Assembly (NCBI GenBank): GCA_965243795.1
Contig: OZ251576.1
Location: 3,156,810-3,220,809, forward strand
Source: Phototrophicaceae bacterium
GTDB taxonomy: Bacteria > Chloroflexota > Anaerolineae > Aggregatilineales > Phototrophicaceae
Length of the DNA stretch: 64,000 bases
Reading direction: 5' to 3'
The notes beneath the pieces were generated by a model. The model had not been told where the DNA came from and did not search any database. It was given only the letters and a program-made list of their open reading frames with translations. The position numbers were made by a program, and so were the translations under genes. Below, piece after piece: positions 15,010 through 48,100 of the stretch. The number at the start of each line of letters is the position of its first letter. Position 1 is the stretch's first letter.

Positions 15010-15250
15010 AAAAACCAAAACCGCGACCTTTGAGTCGCCCTTCCCACCTGCAAACGCGGTATAAAGAATCTGCACAGCATAAAATCGAAATCGCCTTATG
15101 ACCGAAAAAATTTCTTTTGCGAACATAAAACGGACACAAAGCAGATGTTGCCCTCTGTGCCTCTGTGTCCTCTGTGGTAAAAAGCACATAGAGGCGAAAT
15201 CGCTTATGCGCGAAAAAGTTTGTCTTTCGCGCACAAAACGCGCATAAAAC
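15010..15250 (-). repeat. Intergenic repeat core, copy 1; it contains one intact and one degenerate hairpin module
   Basis: The reverse complement matches the copies at 23863-24015 and 42559-42758. Shared blocks are GTTTTATGCGCGTTTT(A/G)TGCGCGAAAGACAAACTTTTTCGCGCATAAG and GGGAAGGGCGACTCAAAG(G/A)TCGC(G/A)GTTTTGGTTTTT. Confidence 0.85.
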
Positions 15251-15253
15251 CAG

Positions 15254-15645
15254 CGGCAGGGCGTGGCGGAAAATGGCGGATTTTGTCGGATTTTGACGTA
15301 GTATGTGGCGGATTATGGCGGATTTTGTCGGATTTTGACGTAGTATGTGGCGGATTATGGCGGAAAATGGCGGACTTTGTCGAGTGAATGCCCCCTCTTT
15401 AATGGCTTTTCTCTCTGACCTCTGTGGTAAAAGATTTATGGCGGATTGTGGCGGAAAATGGCGGACTTTGTCGGATTTTGACGTAGTATGTGGCGGATTA
15501 TGGCGGAAAATGGCGGACTTTGTCGAGTGAATGCCCCTCTATAATGGCTTTTCTCTCTGACCTCTGTGACCTCTGTGGTAAAAAGATTTATGGCGGATTG
15601 TGGCGGAAAATGGCGGACTTTGTCGGATTATGGCGGATTTTGACC
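15254..15645. repeat. Tandem repeat array A: GTGGCGGA(A/T)(A/T)ATGGCGGA... subrepeats organised in a higher-order unit of about 125 bp
   Basis: GTGGCGGATTATGGCGGAAAATGGCGGACTTTGTCGAGTGAATGCCCC..CTCT.TAATGGCTTTTCTCTCTGACCTCTGTGGTAAAAGATTTATGGCGGATTGTGGCGGAAAATGGCGGACTTTGTCGGATTTTGACGTAGTAT occurs about twice, plus shorter units of about 42 bp. Confidence 0.9.
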
Positions 15646-23862: not shown

Positions 23863-24015
23863 GTTTTATGCGCGTTTTATGCGCGAAAGGAAAACTTTTT
23901 CGCGCATAAAGCGATTTCACTTTATGCTATGCAGTTCTTTATACCGCGTTTGCGGGCCGAAGAGGTGACTAAACGTTCGCAGTTTTGGTTTTCGCATGTC
24001 TTTATTTTTTACCAT
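23863..24015 (+). repeat. Intergenic repeat core, copy 2 (no tandem array attached)
   Basis: It contains a 12-bp-stem hairpin, TTATGCGCGAAA (23877-23888) pairing with TTTCGCGCATAA (23898-23909). It ends in CGCAGTTTTGGTTTTCGCATGTCTTTATTTTTTACCA, as copy 3 does. Confidence 0.85.
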
Positions 24016-24216
24016 TCCCCAATGATGGGCATGGCAGACAGCTGCAACTTCAAGCAAAAGGACATGAGGCCGTCATCCTGGGCAAAGGACAAATCGCGCT
24101 GATTCCAGCCCGCGTTGAGTCACTCTCTATTCAAGTCGCCGGGACCGCTCCGCGCTCATGCCAAAGCCCCGCCTTGTAATCATGTGATTGCGGAGCAGGT
24201 ATGCAGATAAAAAGAA

Positions 24217-26238
24217 TTATTCGATCAATTTTTCTAGTCTTTTTTCGATCCACTTAGCAAATCGATGTTCCCAGTCATCAATCCGATTTCGTATGGCTCT
24301 CCCATCCTTTAACTCCAATATAAAAAATACGAGTAGAACTAACCACAAACAAACTAATACAAACTGGATTCCTGGAGTTTGCTCATTAAGGTCAATTATC
24401 GACAATACGTCAAGAGGAGAACTAACAAGCAAAAACAAAATACTTGCAAGGCCTAAAATGAATCTTACGCCAGTAAATAATGGTTTTGCCCATCGTTTTG
24501 ATCGCGCTTTTCTATTCTTCGCCGCTCTCTGCTGTGTTTCAAAGAGTTCTTGTCTCTTACGTTGCTCGTTTTCAAGTTTTTGGGTCAGTGCTAGCGTGCG
24601 CGCATCTGCTTGGCTTTGTAGCTCAGCTTGTTTGCGCGAAGCCTCATCCAATGCTTCTTGTTGGAATTTCGTTTTTACAGCTTTCCGGATTTCCTGAACT
24701 GCCCCTTCGGTCAATATCTCAGGTGATCCATGTGTGATCTCCATCAATGAATTTCTTGCTTCCTGAGTATAGCGAAAGGCATAATAATCATCTGACTTGA
24801 TTTCACGGCGCGCTTGTAATTGCTCGATTTTCTTGACATATATTTTCCATAAATAGGGGTCTGGTTGAGTTGCGGCGTAAGCGTCCGCAATTATTTGTTT
24901 TCGCGGCATATCAGGGAGAGAATCGGGCCTTGTTAGCCAAAGCAAGTTTGCGACAGTGAAATCTGTCAGACAATGTGTCACAGTATTCGCCGGTTCATCA
25001 AAGTACTCATGAGATGATCTTAAAAGCGCAACATTGTGTGTAACGAAAATAGCTTTGCAATCCTCAATTTTGTTAAATGATTTACCTTTTCGCAGACGAT
25101 GAATTGAAGCAACGGAGTCAACATCATTTCTTATTTGTCTTATTTGTTTGCTTCTGTCTGCATTAGCATTACTTGAATATTTATCAGACAGAAGAGTTTC
25201 CAATCGATCTTCATCTATTACATATTCTCTCACATATTCAGGTTTATCTCTGATTTCGATGCCTAGTGCACCAAGATTATCTTCTACAGTTTGCAGCTCC
25301 AACAATATGTCGGACGGCGTATAGCCTTTTCCCATCATAAAGTCAATAGAAAAAGCTAGCCGACCATATGCTTGACCTATGTTTCCGCTCTCAATTATTT
25401 TCGAGCATGCAAATAAGATATTCTCAACTTCTTCAACATTATGAGCAAAGCACCGCATCTTCGCGCCGGTCAATTTAAGTGCCGAAAGCAATTCGCCGCG
25501 TAACTCTTGTTTTGTCTTGCCTTGATAGCCCAGCGCCTCAATCAAAAATGGTGTGTCAAAATAGAACGATGTCGTCCATCGTTTCTTGATACTCTTGTTG
25601 TTGTCAGGCAAATATAAAACATTTACAAGCATCATACCCTTAAGAACTGTCTCAAGATATTCTAATTCCTTGCCTTGATTCCGCGATATATGCGTGACAA
25701 ACGAGCCTACCATGTATTTATGCGTAGGATCACGCGATGATTGAAGAGGGATGATGGGTTGTGTTTTAGATAACATTGCATTGAGGAGTGCAACCTGATG
25801 TTCTGCTAAGAATCCCTCCAACAGATTTTCGGCATCTTGTCGTGTAATATTCCTGCTAAATTCAGACTCACAGTATTCGACCATATTATCAATAAGGGAG
25901 TCGTACTTTTCTAGCACGTTAGCTTGCATATCTGAGAAATTTCTATTCCTGAGTTTCTCGCGATTAGGTGTATAATATCGGTTCTCGCGACGGATTAACT
26001 TGCGCCTCTCCAATCTACGAAGCAAACTGTCTATGACACCCGTTGGTAATTTGAGTCCAAAAATTCTCTGAAATTCAACCTGCAATTCGTTAATTGCAAG
26101 AACAGATTCATCGTGCTGTGAGATAACTTCAGCTAACATTTCCGAGAACGGATACAGATAGCCCTTACTTCTATCCTTATCCCAATTTGCCATGAGTATC
26201 GCTAGACTAGCGATAATATGTTCTTGCTCGTTTCTCAT
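24217..26238 (-). CDS. Unknown 673-aa protein: N-terminal wHTH-like region, central PIN-like motif set, coiled coil, two C-terminal TM helices
   Basis: Long ORF in a markedly AT-rich segment. Motifs: LPTGVIDSLLRRLERRKLIRRENRYYTPN (wHTH-like); FYFD228TPFLIEALG, HNVE269E270VENIL, IRND372VDSVASI and AIFVT400HN (VapC/PIN-like pattern); a charged heptad-like stretch at about 515-580; hydrophobic helices at about 586-607 and about 623-642. Confidence 0.8.
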   Translation of the reverse strand: MRNEQEHIIASLAILMANWDKDRSKGYLYPFSEMLAEVISQHDESVLAINELQVEFQRIFGLKLPTGVIDSLLRRLERRKLIRRENRYYTPNREKLRNRNFSDMQANVLEKYDSLIDNMVEYCESEFSRNITRQDAENLLEGFLAEHQVALLNAMLSKTQPIIPLQSSRDPTHKYMVGSFVTHISRNQGKELEYLETVLKGMMLVNVLYLPDNNKSIKKRWTTSFYFDTPFLIEALGYQGKTKQELRGELLSALKLTGAKMRCFAHNVEEVENILFACSKIIESGNIGQAYGRLAFSIDFMMGKGYTPSDILLELQTVEDNLGALGIEIRDKPEYVREYVIDEDRLETLLSDKYSSNANADRSKQIRQIRNDVDSVASIHRLRKGKSFNKIEDCKAIFVTHNVALLRSSHEYFDEPANTVTHCLTDFTVANLLWLTRPDSLPDMPRKQIIADAYAATQPDPYLWKIYVKKIEQLQARREIKSDDYYAFRYTQEARNSLMEITHGSPEILTEGAVQEIRKAVKTKFQQEALDEASRKQAELQSQADARTLALTQKLENEQRKRQELFETQQRAAKNRKARSKRWAKPLFTGVRFILGLASILFLLVSSPLDVLSIIDLNEQTPGIQFVLVCLWLVLLVFFILELKDGRAIRNRIDDWEHRFAKWIEKRLEKLIE

Positions 26239-26418
26239 TTAGATGACCTTAAATTTTTTGGAAATCTGGCTTCTTAGTCCAGACACGAGGTCAGATCGGG
26301 CGCGGGCGTTTTCATCCAGCGAGCGTTCAACATAATTGATTAGCCACTTGCCGAATGCCAACGCGCCGATGCCCAGTCCGATGACTTCAAGCTGGAGGGT
26401 TTGCAGAATGTCCATCAT
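26239..26418 (-). CDS. Small membrane protein (59 aa), missing from the ORF track because it is under 60 aa
   Basis: Own translation: MMDILQTLQLEVIGLGIGALAFGKWLINYVERSLDENARARSDLVSGLRSQISKKFKVI. AGGA lies upstream of the ATG. Its TAA (26239-26241) directly abuts the ATG of the 673-aa gene (26236-26238). Confidence 0.6.
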   Translation of the reverse strand: MMDILQTLQLEVIGLGIGALAFGKWLINYVERSLDENARARSDLVSGLRSQISKKFKVI

Positions 26419-26433
26419 TTATTCCTGTCCGGC

Positions 26434-26886
26434 CTAGGGAACACAATGATCACTGTCAAATCCTACACTTATCAGGGCAACCGCTTCCTGAGGATGCAGT
26501 CCGAGTTTGAGCAACTTGTTAAAGCCAAGTTTTCGATCAAACTCTTTTTGACGGCAATTTTCATATTCCCATCTTTCCTTCTGAGTTCTCCTCTCATGGC
26601 GAAAACAGTTATCCACAGAATAATGACGAAGCTCATTAAAATCATGCTCAATTTGCCTTATTTCTGCATCCGTCAGCGTCAAGCGAGATCGAATCTCTGC
26701 CTTGACCCCTGCTGCGACCCGGGTTGCAACCCGCGCGTCAAATTCCGCTTCAATTCGCTCGACAACCGCTCGCCCACCAAAAAATATCCCAAAACCTGCA
26801 AGCCCTATAACAGTGCAGAACCCAAGCAAGACCAATACATCCACCAAGCCTGGCCCATGCTTCGTCGTTCCCTGTCTCTTATCCAT
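26434..26886 (-). CDS. Unknown 150-aa protein: N-terminal TM helix plus a charged helical region
   Basis: I prefer ATG 26884-26886 (MDKRQGTT...) because AGGAGGAG lies 5 nt upstream. TM helix LVDVLVLLGFCTVIGLAGFGIFFGG. The rest is Glu/Arg-rich. It ends 15 nt before the 59-aa ORF. Confidence 0.65.
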   Translation of the reverse strand: MDKRQGTTKHGPGLVDVLVLLGFCTVIGLAGFGIFFGGRAVVERIEAEFDARVATRVAAGVKAEIRSRLTLTDAEIRQIEHDFNELRHYSVDNCFRHERRTQKERWEYENCRQKEFDRKLGFNKLLKLGLHPQEAVALISVGFDSDHCVP

Positions 26887-26994
26887 GCTACTCCTCCTCA
26901 TCTGCTAACAGATCGCTGAGCTCGGCGGCCTTCGCCACATCCATACCGCCCTTGACCAGCGAGTCAAAGTACAGGCACAGCCGGCCATAAGTTA

Positions 26995-27024
26995 ATTATA
27001 CAACAGACAATCGACGAAACACAA
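26995..27024 (-). promoter_or_regulatory. Candidate sigma70-type promoter for the three-gene operon
   Basis: Minus strand reads TTGTGT (27019-27024), an 18-nt spacer, then TATAAT (26995-27000), about 100 nt upstream of ATG 26886. Confidence 0.35.
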
Positions 27025-27277
27025 GGCTTAATGCTTTAGAGAGTGGTAGACATTCACCACTTTATACGCGCCATGATCCGCCACGCCATGCCGCACCATT
27101 CACTGACCTGGCGGGCATTGAATGTCCCGCGATTGCCTTGGACAGTGTACGCGGCAACATTTTGGCCAAGCCCCCCAGCGGCCAGACGCTAACAGGAATA
27201 TGACGTCCCTCTAACACCCTTTCGATAGTATCCCCCGACAATCAAAGCATTGATATAAGAACGCGAAGGGGTGGAAC

Positions 27278-29890
27278 ATGGATTTCAGCCGTTATACCAA
27301 TAAGGCGCAGCAGGCCTTGCTCAAGGCGCAGGGCATCGCTGGGGAATATCATCATGCGGCTGTCGCGCCGCTGCATATTCTGCTGGGGCTGCTGGAGCAG
27401 GACGAGGGCCTGGCGCCGCGGATTATTCAGAAAATTGGCGCGCATCCGGCCGGCGTCGGCGCTGAACTGCGGGGCCTGCTGGAAAAACTGCCGCGCATCG
27501 ACCAGCCAGAAGCGGGCATTCCGCTTGGCCGAGACGGCTTGCAGGTTTTGACCCAGGCCGAAAAAGAGGCCAAGAAGATGCGCGACGAATACACCAGCAG
27601 CGAACATCTGCTTTTGGCCTTGTCCAACGAACGCGAAACAGGGACTTTGCTGCGGCGTCATGCGGTCGGCTATGATGACATCCTGCAAGCGCTTCAGTCG
27701 ATTCGCGGGCGGCAGCGCATCACCAATCCTGATCCTGAATCGACCTATGAAAGCCTGGCCAAGTTCGGGCGCGATCTGACCGGCGATGCGCGGCAGGGCC
27801 GGCTCGACCCAGTGATTGGGCGCGATGAGGAGATTCGCCGCTTGATTCATGTGATCAGCCGCCGCACCAAGAACAATCCCGTCTTGATTGGCGAGGCTGG
27901 CGTGGGCAAGACGGCGATTGCCGAAGGCCTGGCGCAGCGGATTGTGAATGGGGATGTGCCTGATGGCCTGAAGGGCAAGACGGTCATCGCGCTGGATATG
28001 GCGGCGCTGGTCGCTGGCAGCAAGTTTCGCGGTGAATTCGAAGAGCGTCTGCAAGCTGTGCTGAAAGAGATAGCCGAAAGCGACGGCGAAATCATCCTCT
28101 TCATCGACGAACTGCATAATATCGTTGGCGCCGGGCGCGCCGAAGGCTCTATGGACGCCGGCAATATGCTCAAGCCGATGCTGGCGCGGGGCGAACTGCG
28201 GATGATTGGGGCGACCACGTTGGACGAATACCGCCGGCATATCGAAAAGGACGCCGCGCTGGAACGGCGTTTTCAGCCTATTTATGTGCAGGAGCCGACG
28301 GTGGAAGACGCGGTTAGCATTCTGCGCGGGCTGAAGGAGCGCTATGAGGTGCATCATGGCGTGCGGATCCAAGACGGCGCGGTCATTGCCGCCGCTGCCC
28401 TTAGTCATCGCTATCTGCCCGACCGCCAGCTGCCGGACAAAGCCATTGACTTGATTGACGAAGCCGCCGCGCATCTCAAAATGGAAATCGACAGCAAGCC
28501 GGCGCCGCTTGACAAAATCGAGCGGCAGATGATGCAGCTGGAAATCGAGCGGGCGGCCTTGCGGAAGGAAAAGGACGCCGCCTCCAAACGCCGTCTGGAA
28601 GATCTGGAGGCCGAGCTTGCCGATGCCCAGGAAGAGTTTAGCGGTCTGCTGGCCGTTTGGCAGCGCGAGAAAGACGTCATTCAGGGCATGTCGGACATCA
28701 AAGCGGCCATCGACGAAGCCCGGATTCAGCTGGAGCGGGCCGAACGAGAGAGCAGCCTGGAAGAGGCGGCCCGCCTGCGTTATGGTCGACTGCCCGAATT
28801 GGAGCGAACGCTGCGGGCGCGCGAAGCGGCGATTGAGGCCATGCGCGGCGAGGGGACATTGATGCTGAAGGAAGAGGTGGATGCCGATGAGGTGGCGGCC
28901 ATCGTCAGTCGCTGGACGGGTGTTCCCGTGACGCGGCTGCTGGAAGGCGAAATCGAAAAGCTGCTGCACATGGAAGAGCGTCTGCATGCGCGCGTGGTCG
29001 GCCAGGATGCGGCCATTCAAGCTGTGACGGCCGCCGTTCGCCGCAGCCGCGCCGGCCTGCAAGACCCCAGCCGGCCAGTAGGCGCGTTCCTGTTTTTGGG
29101 GCCGACCGGCGTCGGCAAGACCGAGATGGCGCGTTCACTGGCGCAGTTTCTATTCGACGACGAACAGGCGATGGTGCGGATCGACATGAGCGAATATGGC
29201 GAAAAGCACAGCGTCGCCCGTTTGATTGGCGCGCCGCCGGGTTATGTTGGCTATGAAGAAGGCGGCCAGCTGACGGAAGCGGTTCGGCGCCGGCCTTACT
29301 GTGTTGTCCTGTTTGACGAAATCGAAAAGGCTCATGCTGATGTCTTCAATATCTTCCTGCAAATCTTTGAGGATGGGCGGCTGACAGATGGGCAGGGGCG
29401 CACCGTCAGCTTTGCCAGCAGCGTCATTATTATGACCAGCAACGCGGGAAGCGCGCTCATCAAGCAGATGGGGCCCAGGCCAGACCCGACCGCGCAGCGC
29501 AAGGCCATCATGGCCGAACTCGACCGCCATTTCCGCCCAGAGTTTCTGAATCGGCTGGACGAGATCATCATCTTCCACAGCTTGACGGAAGAGCATATTA
29601 TCCGCATTGCCGACATCCAGCTAGGTCGACTGGAAAGACTGCTGGCCGAACGGCAGATCACGATTGAAGTAAGCGCGGCGGCCAAAGCCCGGCTGGCGGA
29701 ATTGGGCTGGGATGCGGTGTTTGGCGCCCGGCCGCTGAAACGGGCCATCCAAAGCCACATTCAAGACCCGCTGGCGCTGGCGATTCTTGAGGGACGGATC
29801 AAAGAAGGCGATGATGTCCGCATCGACCTTGACGCCGACGGCCTTGATTTTGTCTATGAATCGGCGCCGCTGGAATTGGCCGGCGTCTAG
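27278..29890 (+). CDS. clpB: ATP-dependent chaperone ClpB
   Basis: 870 aa. Clp N domain; two AAA+ modules ([30 protein letters not shown]); a long middle coiled coil. Confidence 0.95.
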
Positions 29891-29898
29891 GCGCGGGT

Positions 29899-30138
29899 TT
29901 ATTCGGCTGGCGGCGGAATCGGCAGTTCAGCTTCAGGGGTGTCTTTCCATTTTTCGCCCTCATCGACCAGCATAACCGGAATGCCGTCCCGAATGGGATA
30001 TTTATAGCCGCTGTCGTCACAGACCAGCCAGCTGTCTTTCACCAGGCGCAGTCGACCGGGGTCATCGCCTTTGTCTTGATAATGCACCGCCACCGGACAG
30101 CGCAGGATTTTCATAAGTTCATCGGATACCACTGCCAT
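29899..30138 (-). CDS. Trm112-family protein
   Basis: 79 aa. LMKILRCPV...LVCDDSGYKYPIRDGIPVMLVDE is typical of Trm112/UPF0434. Confidence 0.75.
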   Translation of the reverse strand: MAVVSDELMKILRCPVAVHYQDKGDDPGRLRLVKDSWLVCDDSGYKYPIRDGIPVMLVDEGEKWKDTPEAELPIPPPAE

Positions 30139-42515: not shown

Positions 42516-42558
42516 GCAGAATTCGCTGGCCTGGCAGGCAACATCTGAAGCGGGACGG

Positions 42559-42758
42559 GGTTTTATGCGCGTTTTATGCGCGAAAGACAAACTTTTTCGC
42601 GCATAAGGTGATTTCCCATGCGGCTTCTGGCGGTCAGACCGCGTTCGGCAGTTTGACAGCGCATTTGATTCACAGCCACAGCCTAGCGCATAAGCGAGTG
42701 GGAAGGGCGACTCAAAGATCGCAGTTTTGGTTTTTGCATGTCTTTATTTTTTACCACT
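42559..42758 (+). repeat. Intergenic repeat core, copy 3
   Basis: Hairpin TTATGCGCGAAA (42574-42585) pairs with TTTCGCGCATAA (42595-42606). The tail GGGAAGGGCGACTCAAAGATCGCAGTTTTGGTTTTTGCATGTCTTTATTTTTTACCAC ends at the purB stop codon. Confidence 0.85.
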
Positions 42759-42760
42759 CC

Positions 42761-44116
42761 CTATTCGGGCCTGACCAGTTCTTCGGCGCATCCAACATAG
42801 CTGGCCGGCGTGAGTCGGAGCAGCCGTTCTTTTTCGTCTGGCGGGATGGCCAATGCGCGGATGAAATTGTGAAGCATAGCTTGGGTCAGCCGGCGGCCGC
42901 GGGACAGCGCGCTTAGTTTTTCGTAGGCTTGGGGGATGTGATGCTTGCGAAGCACGGTCTGCACGGCCTCGCCCAGCACTTGCCAGGCATCGTCCAAATC
43001 GGCCTGCATGGCCGATCTATCGGCTTCCACCTTGCCCAGGCCGCGCCGTATCGAACCCAGCGCCAGGAAACTATGGGCAATGCCGACGCCATAATTCCGC
43101 AGCGCCGACGAATCGCTTAGGTCGCGCTGAAGGCGGGAAATGGGCAGCTTGGCGGCCAGATGCGCCAAAAGAGCGTTGCTGATCCCCAGATTGGCTTCGG
43201 CATTTTCAAAATCAATGGGATTGATTTTATGCGGCATCGTCGACGAGCCAACTTCGCCGGCCACGGCTTTTTGCCTGAAATAACCCAGCGAAATATAAGC
43301 CCACATATCGCGGCAGTAATCCAGCAGGATGGCATGAAAGCGCATCAGGCTGTGGCCCAGTTCGGCAAGCCAGTCATGGGGTTCGATTTGGGTGGTGATG
43401 GGATTGTGCGTCAGGCCCAGGCCTTGCGCGAATCGGCGCGACAGTTCAGGCCAATCGACATCGGGATAGGCCGCGCGATGGGCATTGTAGCCCCCCGTGG
43501 CGCCATTGAACTTGCCCAGGTACTCCTGCGCTTCAATCTGATTCAGCTGGCGGCGCAGACGATAGGCAAAAACGGCAAGCTCTTTGCCCATGGTGGTCGG
43601 CGTGGCGGGCTGGCCATGGGTGCGGGCGAGCATAGCGGCGGCGGCCAGCGATTGGGCCAGGGCGGCGAGTTCGTCCAGCAGCAGCTTGGCGCGCGGCTGC
43701 CAGAGATTCTGCATGGCATCGCGAAACATCAGCGCATAGGCCAGGTTGTTGATGTCGGCAGAAGCGCAGGCAAAATGAACTGACTCGGCCGCATCCGCCA
43801 GACTCGTATCGGCCAGACGGTGCTTGATGAAGTATTCGACAGCCTTGACGTCGTGATTGGTGACGGCCTCGAGCGATTTGATCTGGGCGGCGGCTTCATC
43901 ATCAAAATCGTCCACTATGGCCTGAAGAAAGCGAATTTCATCAGCTTCAAATCGGCGCAGATGAGTAATGCCGCGGTGTTCGGCCATCGTCATCAGCCAG
44001 CGCAGTTCGACCAAGAGGCGGTATTTCATCAAAGCCCATTCAGAAAACGTTTCTTGAAGTGGTTTGGTTTGGTCGCCATAACGTCCGTCCAGAGGTGAGA
44101 TCGCCCGTGCATTCAT
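42761..44116 (-). CDS. purB: Adenylosuccinate lyase
   Basis: MNARAISPLDGRYG..., and the fumarate-lyase signature context GSSTMPHKINP. I trimmed the start to ATG 44114-44116. Confidence 0.9.
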   Translation of the reverse strand: MNARAISPLDGRYGDQTKPLQETFSEWALMKYRLLVELRWLMTMAEHRGITHLRRFEADEIRFLQAIVDDFDDEAAAQIKSLEAVTNHDVKAVEYFIKHRLADTSLADAAESVHFACASADINNLAYALMFRDAMQNLWQPRAKLLLDELAALAQSLAAAAMLARTHGQPATPTTMGKELAVFAYRLRRQLNQIEAQEYLGKFNGATGGYNAHRAAYPDVDWPELSRRFAQGLGLTHNPITTQIEPHDWLAELGHSLMRFHAILLDYCRDMWAYISLGYFRQKAVAGEVGSSTMPHKINPIDFENAEANLGISNALLAHLAAKLPISRLQRDLSDSSALRNYGVGIAHSFLALGSIRRGLGKVEADRSAMQADLDDAWQVLGEAVQTVLRKHHIPQAYEKLSALSRGRRLTQAMLHNFIRALAIPPDEKERLLRLTPASYVGCAEELVRPE

Positions 44117-48018: not shown

Positions 48019-48100
48019 TGCCGGAGGTGGGAGTCGAACCCACACACCCGAAGGTACACGAGTTTGAGTCGTGCGCGTCTGCCAATTCCGCCACTCCGGC
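48019..48100 (-). tRNA. tRNA-Leu (anticodon CAA), class II with a long variable arm; CCA is not encoded
   Basis: The reverse complement is GCCGGAGTGGCGGAATTGGCAGACGCGCACGACTCAAACTCGTGTACCTTCGGGTGTGTGGGTTCGACTCCCACCTCCGGCA. Acceptor stem is GCCGGAG/CTCCGGC, anticodon loop is CTCAAAC, and the T-arm is GTGGG-TTCGACT-CCCAC. Confidence 0.9.

What the first reader, a model, noticed from the sequence alone, without database searches (positions are those of the whole stretch)
24217..27024. AT-rich three-gene operon of membrane-anchored proteins with no recognisable family: candidate undescribed defence or abortive-infection module
Seen in the sequence:
- Hand counts of sample 60-nt lines give roughly 35-40% G+C inside 24.2-26.2 kb. 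The flanking genes are clearly GC-rich (around 60% or more). This is a rough estimate, not a computed value.
- Three minus-strand ORFs are tightly packed. The 150-aa ORF ends at 26434, and a 15-nt gap precedes the ATG at 26418 of a 59-aa ORF.
- The TAA of the 59-aa ORF abuts the ATG of the 673-aa ORF (ATC-TAA-ATG-AGA).
- SD-like sequences precede the first two ORFs; the third is start/stop-coupled, and a TTGTGT-18-TATAAT promoter candidate lies upstream.
- All three products have predicted TM helices, and two have long charged helical or coiled-coil stretches.
- The left border is a copy of the dispersed hairpin element. The right border is the clpB promoter region.
- No integrase or transposase is present.

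Inference: this is a horizontally acquired cassette. A large multidomain protein (DNA-binding-like N-terminus, nuclease-like core, membrane anchor) with two small membrane partners resembles phage-defence or abortive-infection systems. It matches none that I can name.
Basis: partly seen in the sequence, partly recalled or inferred. Interest (0 to 1): 0.8.

Follow-up and report, generated by a model that had tools for sequence, protein, structure and literature searches.

The report
Membrane-anchored PIN-like nuclease, candidate phage defence
The AT-rich stretch holds one large, widespread but unnamed protein that looks like a membrane-tethered nuclease and usually sits among anti-phage genes in other bacteria; the two small genes in front of it are recent local additions, not conserved partners.

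Summary
Three packed minus-strand ORFs (150/155, 59 and 673 aa), a GC dip (0.40 against about 0.60), TM segments and a conserved promoter are all present.

The conserved unit is the 673-aa protein alone. Its family has at least 3,074 clusters at 50% identity, spans many phyla, and has no Pfam, NCBIfam, PADLOC or PHROGs model.

Predicted architecture:
- wHTH
- helical domain
- PIN-like α/β core
- about 95-residue helix
- TM hairpin

In 244 members D228, E270 and D372 are invariant and T400-x-N402 is 98-99% conserved. Foldseek ranks PIN nucleases first in both libraries, but with weak E-values.

No partner gene recurs in 19 loci. The small ORFs occur only in relatives at least 87% identical. They are absent where the gene lies directly beside clpB in 50-58% relatives.

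Elsewhere the gene sits beside type I R-M, BREX PglZ, GmrSD, Mrr, DUF4238, MmeI or CBASS, on plasmids, and in the Z/fun defence hotspot of an E. coli P2-like prophage. DefensePredictor lists an E. coli homologue as an untested predicted defence gene.

Best reading: a new single-gene, membrane-anchored nuclease defence family. Function and substrate are inferred, not shown.

The parts
24217..26238 (-). Core gene: 673-aa protein of a large unnamed family (wHTH - helical domain - PIN-like core - long helix - TM hairpin - C-terminal helix)
   Evidence: ORF. The family has 196 or more hits and 3,074 representative clusters. No family model matches. Full-length model has pLDDT 80.5.
25939..26238 (-). 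Residues about 1-100: conserved N-terminal helices plus a winged helix-turn-helix
   Evidence: The model shows a helix-helix-helix-hairpin pattern. Local Foldseek hits are MarR/MepR (prob 0.96) and IclR/PcaR (prob 0.95). Sequence hits are weak: MarR E 0.18, SelB-wing and Penicillinase_R.
24919..25581 (-). Residues about 220-440: PIN-like alpha/beta core with helical inserts. Candidate active site: D228, E249, E270, E343, D372, T400-x-N402.
   Evidence: Domain model has pLDDT 86. PIN nucleases are the top Foldseek hits in PDB and in BFVD. Residue invariance was measured in 244 members.
24499..24708 (-). Residues about 511-580: first part of a single helix of about 95 residues, a charged putative coiled-coil stalk
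   Evidence: DSSP on the model gives helix H511-605. This segment varies in length across the family.
24304..24498 (-). Residues about 581-645: two hydrophobic segments forming a TM hairpin (587-605, 623-641)
   Evidence: Kyte-Doolittle scan: most of the 34 family members have two hydrophobic segments at this position.
26239..26418 (-). p59: small ORF of 58/59 aa specific to this lineage, with a weak TM segment and a charged helix; its stop codon abuts the start of the big gene
   Evidence: Homologues occur only in close relatives, at 80-100% identity, and their C-terminal ends vary. It is truncated to 38 aa in L026.
26434..26886 (-). p150 (155 aa if started at 26901): orphan ORF with an N-terminal TM segment and a charged helical tail
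   Evidence: There is one homologue, 99% identical. The L001 copy is 70% identical, with a diverged C-terminal half. L026 has an unrelated 90-aa ORF in its place.
26995..27024 (-). Promoter candidate TTGTGT-18-TATAAT
   Evidence: Sequence. It is nearly identical in L001 and L026, although the sequence upstream of it is unrelated. The consensus scanner did not call it.
24041..24216 (+). Remnant of the 3' end of a type I mannose-6-phosphate isomerase gene, which is the ancestral neighbour
   Evidence: It aligns to the end of the PMI gene in L001 and L002. PMI is intact next to the big gene in L001, L002, L024, L025 and L026.
23863..24040 (.). Copy of a dispersed hairpin repeat element, at the point where synteny with relatives breaks

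Best explanation
The functional unit is the 673-aa gene on its own. It belongs to a very large, unnamed, horizontally mobile family of single-gene systems.

Predicted layout: the protein is held in the inner membrane by a C-terminal TM hairpin. The rest faces the cytoplasm: a long helical stalk, a divergent PIN-like Mg2+-nuclease core, a helical domain and an N-terminal winged-helix module.

Most likely it is an anti-phage or anti-mobile-element immune protein. In this model the winged-helix and helical part binds or senses nucleic acid or a phage component, and the PIN-like core cleaves nucleic acid. Tethering to the membrane would keep the nuclease away from host targets, place it where foreign DNA enters, or both.

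In this genome and its closest relatives a conserved promoter and two small membrane ORFs were added upstream. They probably form one transcript with the big gene. They are accessory at most, perhaps modulators, and are not part of the conserved system.

Shown: the ORFs, the composition, the family size, the absence of a partner gene, the gene contexts and the residue invariance.
Inferred: the fold assignment (moderate support), nuclease activity, the defence role and the mechanism.
For: Family and absence of partners:
- 3,074 representative clusters reach E<=1e-3 and 1,227 reach E<=1e-30. Lengths are mostly 610-710 aa.
- The family occurs across Chloroflexota, Bacillota, Pseudomonadota, Actinomycetota, Acidobacteriota, Elusimicrobia and others.
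- An all-against-all BLASTP of neighbouring ORFs in 19 loci finds no recurring partner gene.

Fold and active site:
- The models are confident: pLDDT 80.5 for the full length and 86 for the core.
- Top Foldseek hits for the core are all PIN nucleases: VapC 7vwo_A (prob 0.99, target TM 0.59), HARP 7og5_J (prob 0.99) and 8ssg_F, PRORP 7e8k_D, and VapC 3zvk_A. The top BFVD hit is 'PIN like domain' (prob 0.92).
- In 244 members with a median 32% identity, D228, E270 and D372 are 100% invariant. E249, E343, E392, T400 and N402 are 96-99% conserved.
- D228 ends strand 1 in a YFDT motif. E270 lies 42 residues later, after strand 2. T400-x-N402 ends strand 4.

Defence context, by neighbouring genes:
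- Type I R-M directly upstream in C. perfringens and Paenibacillus.
- PglZ directly upstream, and DrmD-like and TmtA-like genes downstream, in Oribacterium.
- GmrSD, an Mrr-helicase, a methylase, and PRTase-CE with ORC-CDC6-like genes.
- Mrr_cat, NERD/NACHT and SocA_Panacea.
- DUF4238 and MmeI.
- CBASS on a Sporosarcina plasmid.
- NACHT and TIR genes 4-8 kb away in the window's own relatives.

Mobile-element context:
- In E. coli FDAARGOS_1337 the homologue lies between the P2 tail sheath and tail-fibre assembly genes. This is the Z/fun position; Z/fun and a site 'within the tail genes' are described as P2 defence hotspots (PMC13586616).
- The E. coli protein is a full-length family member: hhalign prob 100, E 2.9e-60.
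- DefensePredictor Table S10 lists E. coli WP_096936374.1 as a 'Predicted novel defense gene' with log-odds 8.9, against a cut-off of 4.
- The gene is on plasmids of 7 genera.
- Low GC and faster divergence than its neighbours (big protein 46-58%, PMI 60-64%, ClpB 72-78% identity) fit an immune gene.
Against: - No experiment exists for any member of the family.
- Foldseek E-values are weak (0.05-0.4).
- No sequence profile links the core to PIN. Pfam PIN is hit in only 2 of 34 members at E 0.086. The family consensus gives nothing. A profile search of PDB sequences gives nothing.
- The fourth canonical acidic position is an invariant Asn.
- About half of the loci examined showed no recognisable defence neighbour. 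No formal enrichment statistic was computed.
- In the window's own clade the gene looks vertically inherited at a fixed chromosomal site next to clpB, which is less typical of immune cargo.
- tblastn found no hit in 50,697 deposited phage genomes.
- The PADLOC copy dates from 2023 and DefenseFinder was not available, so a very recent naming cannot be excluded.
Confidence: 0.6

Rival explanations
1. One reading: p150, p59 and the 673-aa protein form an obligate three-component membrane defence or abortive-infection system.
For: - The three ORFs are tightly packed, and the stop of p59 abuts the start of the big gene.
- A shared promoter is conserved in three genomes.
- All three products have hydrophobic segments.
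- The first 33 codons of p59 differ between the window and L026 mostly by synonymous or conservative changes. Its core is conserved in 7 related clusters. It is therefore probably a real small protein.
Against: - p150 is an orphan.
- The slot occupied by p150 holds a variant with a diverged C-terminal half in L001 and an unrelated 90-aa ORF in L026. p59 is frame-shifted or truncated in L001 and L026.
- Both small ORFs are absent from L002, L024 and L025 and from all 19 loci compared across phyla.
- The E. coli, plasmid and Clostridium homologues are stand-alone genes.
Confidence: 0.1
2. It is a housekeeping or regulatory protein of this lineage. Examples would be a membrane-associated RNA-processing nuclease, analogous in layout to RNase Y, or a membrane-tethered transcription factor. 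On this view it has no immune role.
For: - The clpB | gene | PMI arrangement is the same in four genomes, and divergence is congruent with the flanking genes.
- A wHTH plus a membrane anchor resembles membrane-tethered regulators.
- About half of the loci examined lack obvious defence neighbours.
Against: - The family is patchy across phyla.
- It occurs on plasmids flanked by IS elements.
- It sits in a P2 prophage hotspot in only 2 of 5,426 E. coli genomes.
- It is embedded in R-M, BREX and CBASS islands.
- GC3 is far below the host value in every clade member.
- It diverges faster than its neighbours.
Confidence: 0.12
3. It is a selfish or inter-element competition gene, such as an addiction toxin, a plasmid or prophage exclusion factor, or an anti-conjugation factor, rather than host anti-phage immunity.
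For: - It is carried as IS-flanked cargo on plasmids.
- It lies next to integrases and recombinases.
- It lies inside P2-like prophages.
- A PIN-like core is typical of VapC toxins.
Against: - There is no adjacent antitoxin-like gene in most loci.
- The chromosomal copy is stable in the window's clade, with no mobility genes nearby.
- This rival overlaps largely with the defence reading and is hard to separate from it by sequence.
Confidence: 0.1
4. The core is not a nuclease. On this view the PIN-like resemblance is a generic Rossmann-like fold match, and the invariant D/E/D/N residues bind a ligand or a metal for another chemistry, or for signalling.
For: - Foldseek E-values are 0.05 or higher.
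- Other Rossmann-like proteins also appear in the hit lists.
- There is no sequence-profile support for PIN.
- Asn occupies the fourth acidic position.
Against: - PIN proteins are the top-ranked hits in two independent libraries, with prob 0.92-0.99 and target TM up to 0.59.
- The D...E (+42)...D...T-x-N pattern falls on the strand ends and helix starts where PIN catalytic residues lie.
Confidence: 0.08

Closest known systems
SNIPE (membrane-bound GIY-YIG nuclease that cleaves phage DNA during injection; bioRxiv 10.1101/2025.11.03.685801)
   Same: Both are single-protein systems with a membrane anchor, a cytoplasmic DNA-binding module and a nuclease. In SNIPE, tethering prevents self-cleavage, and removing the TM segment is toxic. 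This is the closest working analogy.
   Different: No domains are shared. SNIPE has one N-terminal TM segment, DUF4041 and GIY-YIG. This protein has an N-terminal wHTH, a PIN-like core and a C-terminal TM hairpin. Pfam gives no DUF4041 or GIY-YIG hit. The similarity is by analogy, not homology.
DS-3 of DefensePredictor (E. coli WP_022645725.1, a 340-aa single-protein PIN system; PMC13092281)
   Same: It is a validated one-gene defence system. Its PIN domain is interrupted by a large helical insert, it has no antitoxin, and its catalytic D and E are essential.
   Different: It is half the size. The published description and domain table give it no wHTH or TM domain. hhalign of the core profile against DS-3 gives prob 1%, and against the DS-5 PIN_12 protein prob 0.2%.
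VapC and HARP/PRORP PIN-domain ribonucleases
   Same: They are the best structural matches to the core. They share an acidic D/E/D constellation and a T-x-D/N motif at the end of strand 4.
   Different: VapC is about 130 aa and is paired with a VapB antitoxin. HARP is a housekeeping RNase P. Neither has wHTH, coiled-coil or TM parts. No sequence-level relationship is detectable.
Cargo of the P2-like prophage defence hotspots (Z/fun and tail-gene locus; PMC9122126, PMC13586616)
   Same: The E. coli family member occupies exactly this locus, between tail sheath FI and tail-fibre assembly G.
   Different: That is a location class, not a protein family. The protein itself is annotated only as hypothetical.

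Membership tests
PIN-like domain superfamily | Three-layer alpha/beta/alpha fold with a parallel sheet, matching solved PIN structures | tested here: met
   The domain model has pLDDT 86. Top PDB hits are VapC, HARP and PRORP, with prob up to 0.99 and target TM 0.55-0.59. The top BFVD hit is 'PIN like domain'. E-values are weak (0.05-0.4).
PIN-like domain superfamily | Conserved acidic residues at the end of strand 1, after strand 2, and near strands 3 and 4, plus a T/S-x-D motif | tested here: inconclusive
   D228, E270 and D372 are 100% invariant, E343 is 98% and T400 is 98% conserved. The last position is Asn (N402, 99%), not Asp.
PIN-like domain superfamily | Significant sequence-profile match to a PIN-clan model | tested here: not met
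   Pfam PIN is hit in 2 of 34 members at E 0.086. The family consensus gives no PIN hit. A profile search of PDB sequences gives none.
PIN-like domain superfamily | Metal-dependent nuclease activity | not testable with these tools
   This needs biochemistry.
VapBC-type toxin-antitoxin | A small PIN toxin with an adjacent, co-conserved antitoxin gene | tested here: not met
   The protein is 673 aa with several domains. No partner gene is conserved in 19 loci.
SNIPE | DUF4041 and a GIY-YIG nuclease behind an N-terminal TM segment | tested here: not met
   Pfam gives no DUF4041 or GIY-YIG hit. The TM hairpin is C-terminal.
DefensePredictor DS-3 / DS-5 PIN systems | Detectable homology to WP_022645725.1 or WP_021513009.1 | tested here: not met
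   hhalign gives prob 1.0% and 0.2%.
Any system or candidate in PADLOC-DB v2.0.0 | HMM match to a defence protein model | tested here: not met
   The big protein gives no hit at E<=1. The two small ORFs give only chance-level hits.
Defence-island gene (guilt by association) | Recurrent location next to known defence systems or in defence hotspots in unrelated genomes | tested here: met
   Clear defence neighbours or a hotspot location were found in about 10 of about 23 lineages examined, and mobile-element cargo contexts in several more. No background-corrected statistic was computed.
Conserved three-gene operon (the finding as stated) | Co-occurrence of the three genes across genomes | tested here: not met
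   The trio is found only in relatives whose big protein is at least about 87% identical, and it varies even there. It is absent from relatives at 50-58% identity and from all distant loci.

The most novel reading that the evidence does not exclude
This is an undescribed, very widespread single-protein immune family. It would have arrived independently at the SNIPE logic: a nuclease (here PIN-like) and a winged-helix nucleic-acid-binding module held at the inner membrane by a C-terminal TM hairpin on a long coiled-coil stalk. Foreign nucleic acid would be cut where it enters, and the chromosome would be spared by spatial separation. In the window's lineage, small membrane proteins newly recruited upstream would tune it.
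Probability: 0.3. Interest if true: 0.75.

Novelty: new variant of a known kind. Interest (0 to 1): 0.6.

Why it matters
- A family with thousands of diverged members in many phyla, including Enterococcus, Klebsiella and E. coli mobile elements, has no name, no domain model and no experiment.
- If it is a membrane-tethered PIN-like nuclease that defends against phages, it would be a second, unrelated example of immunity by placing a nuclease at the membrane.
- It would also add a new domain architecture to the PIN superfamily.
- It would give annotation pipelines a model for a common 'hypothetical protein' found in defence islands and P2 hotspots.
- E. coli homologues exist, so the hypothesis can be tested directly with standard phage panels.
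- The window's clade is an oddity for evolutionary study: the gene looks vertically inherited but has kept a foreign base composition.

Tried and rejected
- Pfam, NCBIfam, PADLOC and PHROGs scans of all three proteins gave nothing significant.
- phmmer and profile searches of PDB sequences gave only chance hits to MarR and a KCNQ1 helix.
- Full-length Foldseek against PDB gave only wHTH-plus-Rossmann methyltransferases and FtsY at TM<0.2. This reflects the multi-domain query, so it was redone with the core alone.
- A Pfam scan of the HMM consensus of the core gave no PIN hit.
- hhalign against the DS-3 and DS-5 PIN proteins showed no relationship.
- The first genome-collection scan with the broad alignment failed because no stretch was conserved enough. 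It worked with a tighter alignment but returned only 15 loci.
- A search for a conserved partner gene by all-against-all BLASTP of neighbours found none.
- tblastn against 50,697 phage genomes gave no hit. A prophage lysis or other core phage function was therefore not pursued.
- The organism could not be identified.
- Rfam found only a tRNA in the window and nothing at the locus.
- A Toprim reading of the DVDS motif was considered and dropped, because no Toprim structure appears among the listed Foldseek hits.
- Literature searches by protein accession found no paper text. A search of the DefensePredictor supplementary tables found one accession, WP_096936374.1, in Table S10.


Full report
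**1. The observation**

- 673 aa at 24217..26238.
- 59 aa at 26239..26418.
- 155 aa at 26434..26901.

The 155-aa ORF more plausibly starts at the ATG at 26886, giving 150 aa. GGAGGAG lies just upstream, and the only database homologue is 150 aa long.

The 15-nt gap and the ATC-TAA-ATG junction are as described.

Base composition:
- GC is 0.404 for the large gene, against 0.568 for the window and about 0.60 for its neighbours.
- GC3 is 0.37, against 0.71-0.72 in neighbouring genes.

The TTGTGT-18-TATAAT element lies at 27024..26995. Its -35 hexamer is weak, so the consensus scanner did not list it. It is almost identical in two related genomes whose upstream sequence is otherwise unrelated. That is better evidence of function than the match to consensus.

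Hydropathy supports two TM segments in the large protein, one in p150 and a weak one in p59.

The left border does carry a dispersed hairpin element, with an 18-bp stem at 23873-23913 and further copies at about 15.1 and 42.6 kb. Between that element and the stop codon lies a roughly 175-nt remnant of a mannose-6-phosphate isomerase (PMI) gene.

**2. The three proteins have no described family**

Pfam, NCBIfam, PADLOC-DB 2.0 and PHROGs give nothing significant for any of them. PDB sequence searches give nothing either.

The large protein is not an orphan:
- 196 or more homologues were found in the word-indexed search.
- The exhaustive search of 50%-identity representatives found 3,074 clusters at E<=1e-3 and 1,227 at E<=1e-30. 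Nearly all are 610-710 aa and align end to end.
- All are 'hypothetical' and lack Pfam domains.
- Members come from Chloroflexota, Coatesbacteria, Elusimicrobia, Actinomycetota, Acidobacteriota, Paenibacillus, Clostridium, Mogibacterium, Oribacterium, Pseudomonadales and Sulfuritalea.
- Members also occur on plasmids of Enterococcus faecium, Sporosarcina, Arthrobacter, Hymenobacter, Klebsiella, Pantoea and Listeria.
- tblastn found none in 50,697 deposited phage genomes.

**3. The trio is not a conserved module**

- p150 has one homologue, 99% identical, among 5.8 billion clusters.
- p59 has seven homologue clusters, all at 80-100% identity and all from close relatives. Their C-terminal ends vary.
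- In L001, where the large protein is 90% identical, both small ORFs are present. The C-terminal half of p150 is strongly diverged, and p59 has a 2-nt deletion near its end.
- In L026, at 87% identity, the same promoter and Shine-Dalgarno sequence precede an unrelated 90-aa tail-anchored ORF. p59 is cut to 38 aa by a deletion.
- In L002, L024 and L025, at 50-58% identity, the large gene lies about 200 nt from clpB with no small ORFs.
- An all-against-all BLASTP of neighbouring ORFs from 19 loci across phyla finds no recurring partner.

The conserved unit is one gene.

p59 is probably a real small membrane protein. Between the window and L026 its first 33 codons differ mostly by synonymous or conservative changes. 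It is recent and dispensable for the family as a whole.

**4. History at this locus**

The arrangement [79-aa gene] - clpB - large gene - PMI is shared by the window, L002, L024 and L025.

| Protein | Pairwise identity across these loci |
|---|---|
| Large protein | 46-58% |
| PMI | 60-64% |
| ClpB | 72-78% |

The identities are mutually congruent. This looks like vertical descent with fast evolution, not a recent insertion.

In every one of these genomes the gene keeps a GC3 of 0.36-0.53, against 0.60-0.78 for its neighbours. I could not explain this.

Within the window's subgroup:
- clpB is missing at this site in L001 and L026.
- In the window, PMI has been truncated at the dispersed repeat.

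**5. What the protein looks like**

The AlphaFold2 model built from a 34-sequence alignment is confident, with pLDDT 80.5 and pTM 0.69. It shows:

| Residues | Element |
|---|---|
| about 8-100 | N-terminal helical and winged-helix module |
| about 100-210 | helical domain |
| about 220-440 | alpha/beta core with five parallel strands and helical inserts |
| about 440-510 | helical bundle |
| 511-605 | one long helix |
| 587-605 and 623-641 | two hydrophobic helices |
| C-terminus | amphipathic helix |

The basic residues before TM1 suggest that both ends face the cytoplasm.

Full-length Foldseek found only local wHTH matches: MepR (prob 0.96) and PcaR (prob 0.95).

The core, modelled alone, has pLDDT 86. 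Foldseek gave PIN nucleases as its best PDB hits:
- PRORP 7e8k_D.
- VapC 7vwo_A (prob 0.99, target-normalised TM 0.59).
- HARP 7og5_J and 8ssg_F.
- VapC 3zvk_A.

In BFVD the best hit is a 'PIN like domain' protein (prob 0.92).

E-values are weak (0.05-0.4), and no sequence profile method sees PIN. I hold the fold assignment at about 0.75.

Residue conservation supports an active site. In 244 members with a median 32% identity to the window protein:
- D228 (YFDT, at the end of strand 1), E270 (42 residues later, after strand 2) and D372 are invariant.
- E249, E343, E392, R383, T400 and N402 (F-V-T-x-N, at the end of strand 4) are 96-99% conserved.

This matches the D/E/D plus T-x-D pattern of PIN enzymes, except that Asn replaces the last Asp.

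**6. Where the gene sits in other genomes**

| Host or locus | Neighbouring genes |
|---|---|
| C. perfringens | directly after type I hsdR and a YgjP-like gene, with TIR_2 and PLDc_2 genes nearby |
| Paenibacillus oryzisoli | directly after type I R, M and S genes |
| Oribacterium | between BREX PglZ and a DrmD-like SNF2 helicase, with a TmtA-like gene beyond |
| L033 | between GmrSD (split by IS21) and a 1,500-aa Mrr-helicase; methylase, PRTase-CE and ORC-CDC6-like genes follow |
| L032 | Mrr_cat, NERD/NACHT, SocA_Panacea and an integrase |
| L034 | DUF4238 (validated as a P2-hotspot defence protein, PMC9122126) and an MmeI enzyme |
| Sporosarcina plasmid | a complete-looking CBASS |
| Binatia | next to an integrase in an ICE-like region |
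| Enterococcus and Klebsiella plasmids | IS-flanked cargo |
| Window relatives L001 and L002 | NACHT and TIR-FGE-sulfatase genes 4-8 kb downstream |

In E. coli the gene is rare, found in 2 of 5,426 complete genomes by blastn. In strain FDAARGOS_1337 it sits between the P2 tail sheath and tail-fibre assembly genes. This is the Z/fun position; Z/fun and a site 'within the tail genes' are described as P2 defence hotspots (PMC13586616). In strain MEI7BO1-21 it sits between ogr and D of a rearranged P2-like element, beside a hok/gef gene.

The E. coli protein is a full-length family member: hhalign prob 100, E 2.9e-60, 624 aligned columns.

That same protein, WP_096936374.1, appears in DefensePredictor Table S10 as a 'Predicted novel defense gene' with log-odds 8.9 against a cut-off of 4. 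In the tables held here it appears only in Table S10, not in the table of cloned systems.

About half of the loci I inspected showed no recognisable defence neighbour. I did not compute a background-corrected score.

**7. Mechanism**

Shown: the family, its architecture at the level of confident prediction, the invariant polar constellation, single-gene status and the contexts.

Inferred: a cytoplasmic PIN-like metal-dependent nuclease, held at the membrane by a C-terminal hairpin on a long stalk that probably dimerises. The wHTH and helical domains would bind nucleic acid or sense infection.

Two sub-models remain open.
- Direct cleavage of entering foreign nucleic acid at the membrane. SNIPE works this way, and there tethering prevents self-cleavage.
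- Abortive infection by RNA cleavage after activation, as suggested for the single-protein PIN system DS-3.

I lean slightly towards the first because of the membrane anchor and the DNA-binding-type module, but nothing here discriminates between them.

The small ORFs in this lineage may tune expression or activity. Their turnover argues against an essential role.

**8. Comparison with known systems, and novelty**

The protein is not a member of VapBC, SNIPE, DS-3, DS-5 or any PADLOC 2.0 system.

It works most like SNIPE, by analogy of architecture, and like single-protein PIN defences. The general kind, a stand-alone nuclease immune protein, is known. The family and its architecture are not described in anything I could search. 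I rate it a new variant of a known kind.

Caveats:
- The PADLOC copy dates from 2023.
- DefenseFinder was not available.
- Only open-access text was searched.
- There are no experimental data for any member.

**9. Verdict**

| Claim | Confidence |
|---|---|
| Single-gene unit | about 0.9 |
| PIN-like nuclease core | about 0.75 |
| Defence role | about 0.7 |
| Combined statement | about 0.6 |

Interest is 0.6.

Noticed in passing
window 23863-24040, 15030-15270, 42530-42780: A dispersed repeat of about 150-200 nt. Its core hairpin is GTTTTATGCGCG...AAACTTTTTCGCGCATAA, with an 18-bp stem. There are at least 4 copies in the window, one of them tandem at about 15.1 kb. One copy marks the point where synteny with relatives breaks and the PMI gene is truncated. 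It looks like a MITE- or REP-like element and has no Rfam match.
   Followed up: partly
window 24217-26238; L002, L024, L025 (same gene): The gene appears vertically inherited at a fixed locus, with divergence congruent with ClpB and PMI. Yet it keeps GC3 of 0.36-0.53 against 0.60-0.78 in flanking genes in every genome. The lack of amelioration is unexplained.
   Followed up: partly
L001 6866-7214 and L026 573-1130, compared with window 27035-29899: Two close relatives lack clpB at this locus. The 79-aa Trm112p-like gene abuts the cassette promoter directly, whereas the window and more distant relatives have clpB there. Either clpB was lost or moved in those genomes, or this is a metagenome assembly artefact.
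   Followed up: no
window 26434-26660, compared with L001 7560-7776: The two halves of p150 have very different histories. The N-terminal half is nearly identical at the nucleotide level between the window and L001. The C-terminal half is only about 50% identical, but stays in frame. This suggests a recombination mosaic or rapid diversification.
   Followed up: partly
L001 13755-18019; L002 14312-18007: Relatives carry a NACHT NTPase (about 800 aa), a 172-aa ORF and a TIR_2-FGE-sulfatase fusion a few kb beyond PMI. This is a likely defence cluster. It is not present in the window.
   Followed up: no
L033 3447-7726: A GmrSD type IV restriction gene is split into GmrSD_N and GmrSD_C by an IS21 insertion (rve and IstB), immediately upstream of the family member.
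   Followed up: no
L030 9166-9756 (E. coli MEI7BO1-21): A rearranged P2-like prophage remnant next to pheST-ihfA. A hok/gef toxin gene and ogr lie directly upstream of the family member, and the tail gene block is inverted relative to D.
   Followed up: no
window 48019-48100: A single tRNA gene on the minus strand. It is the only Rfam match in the window.
   Followed up: no
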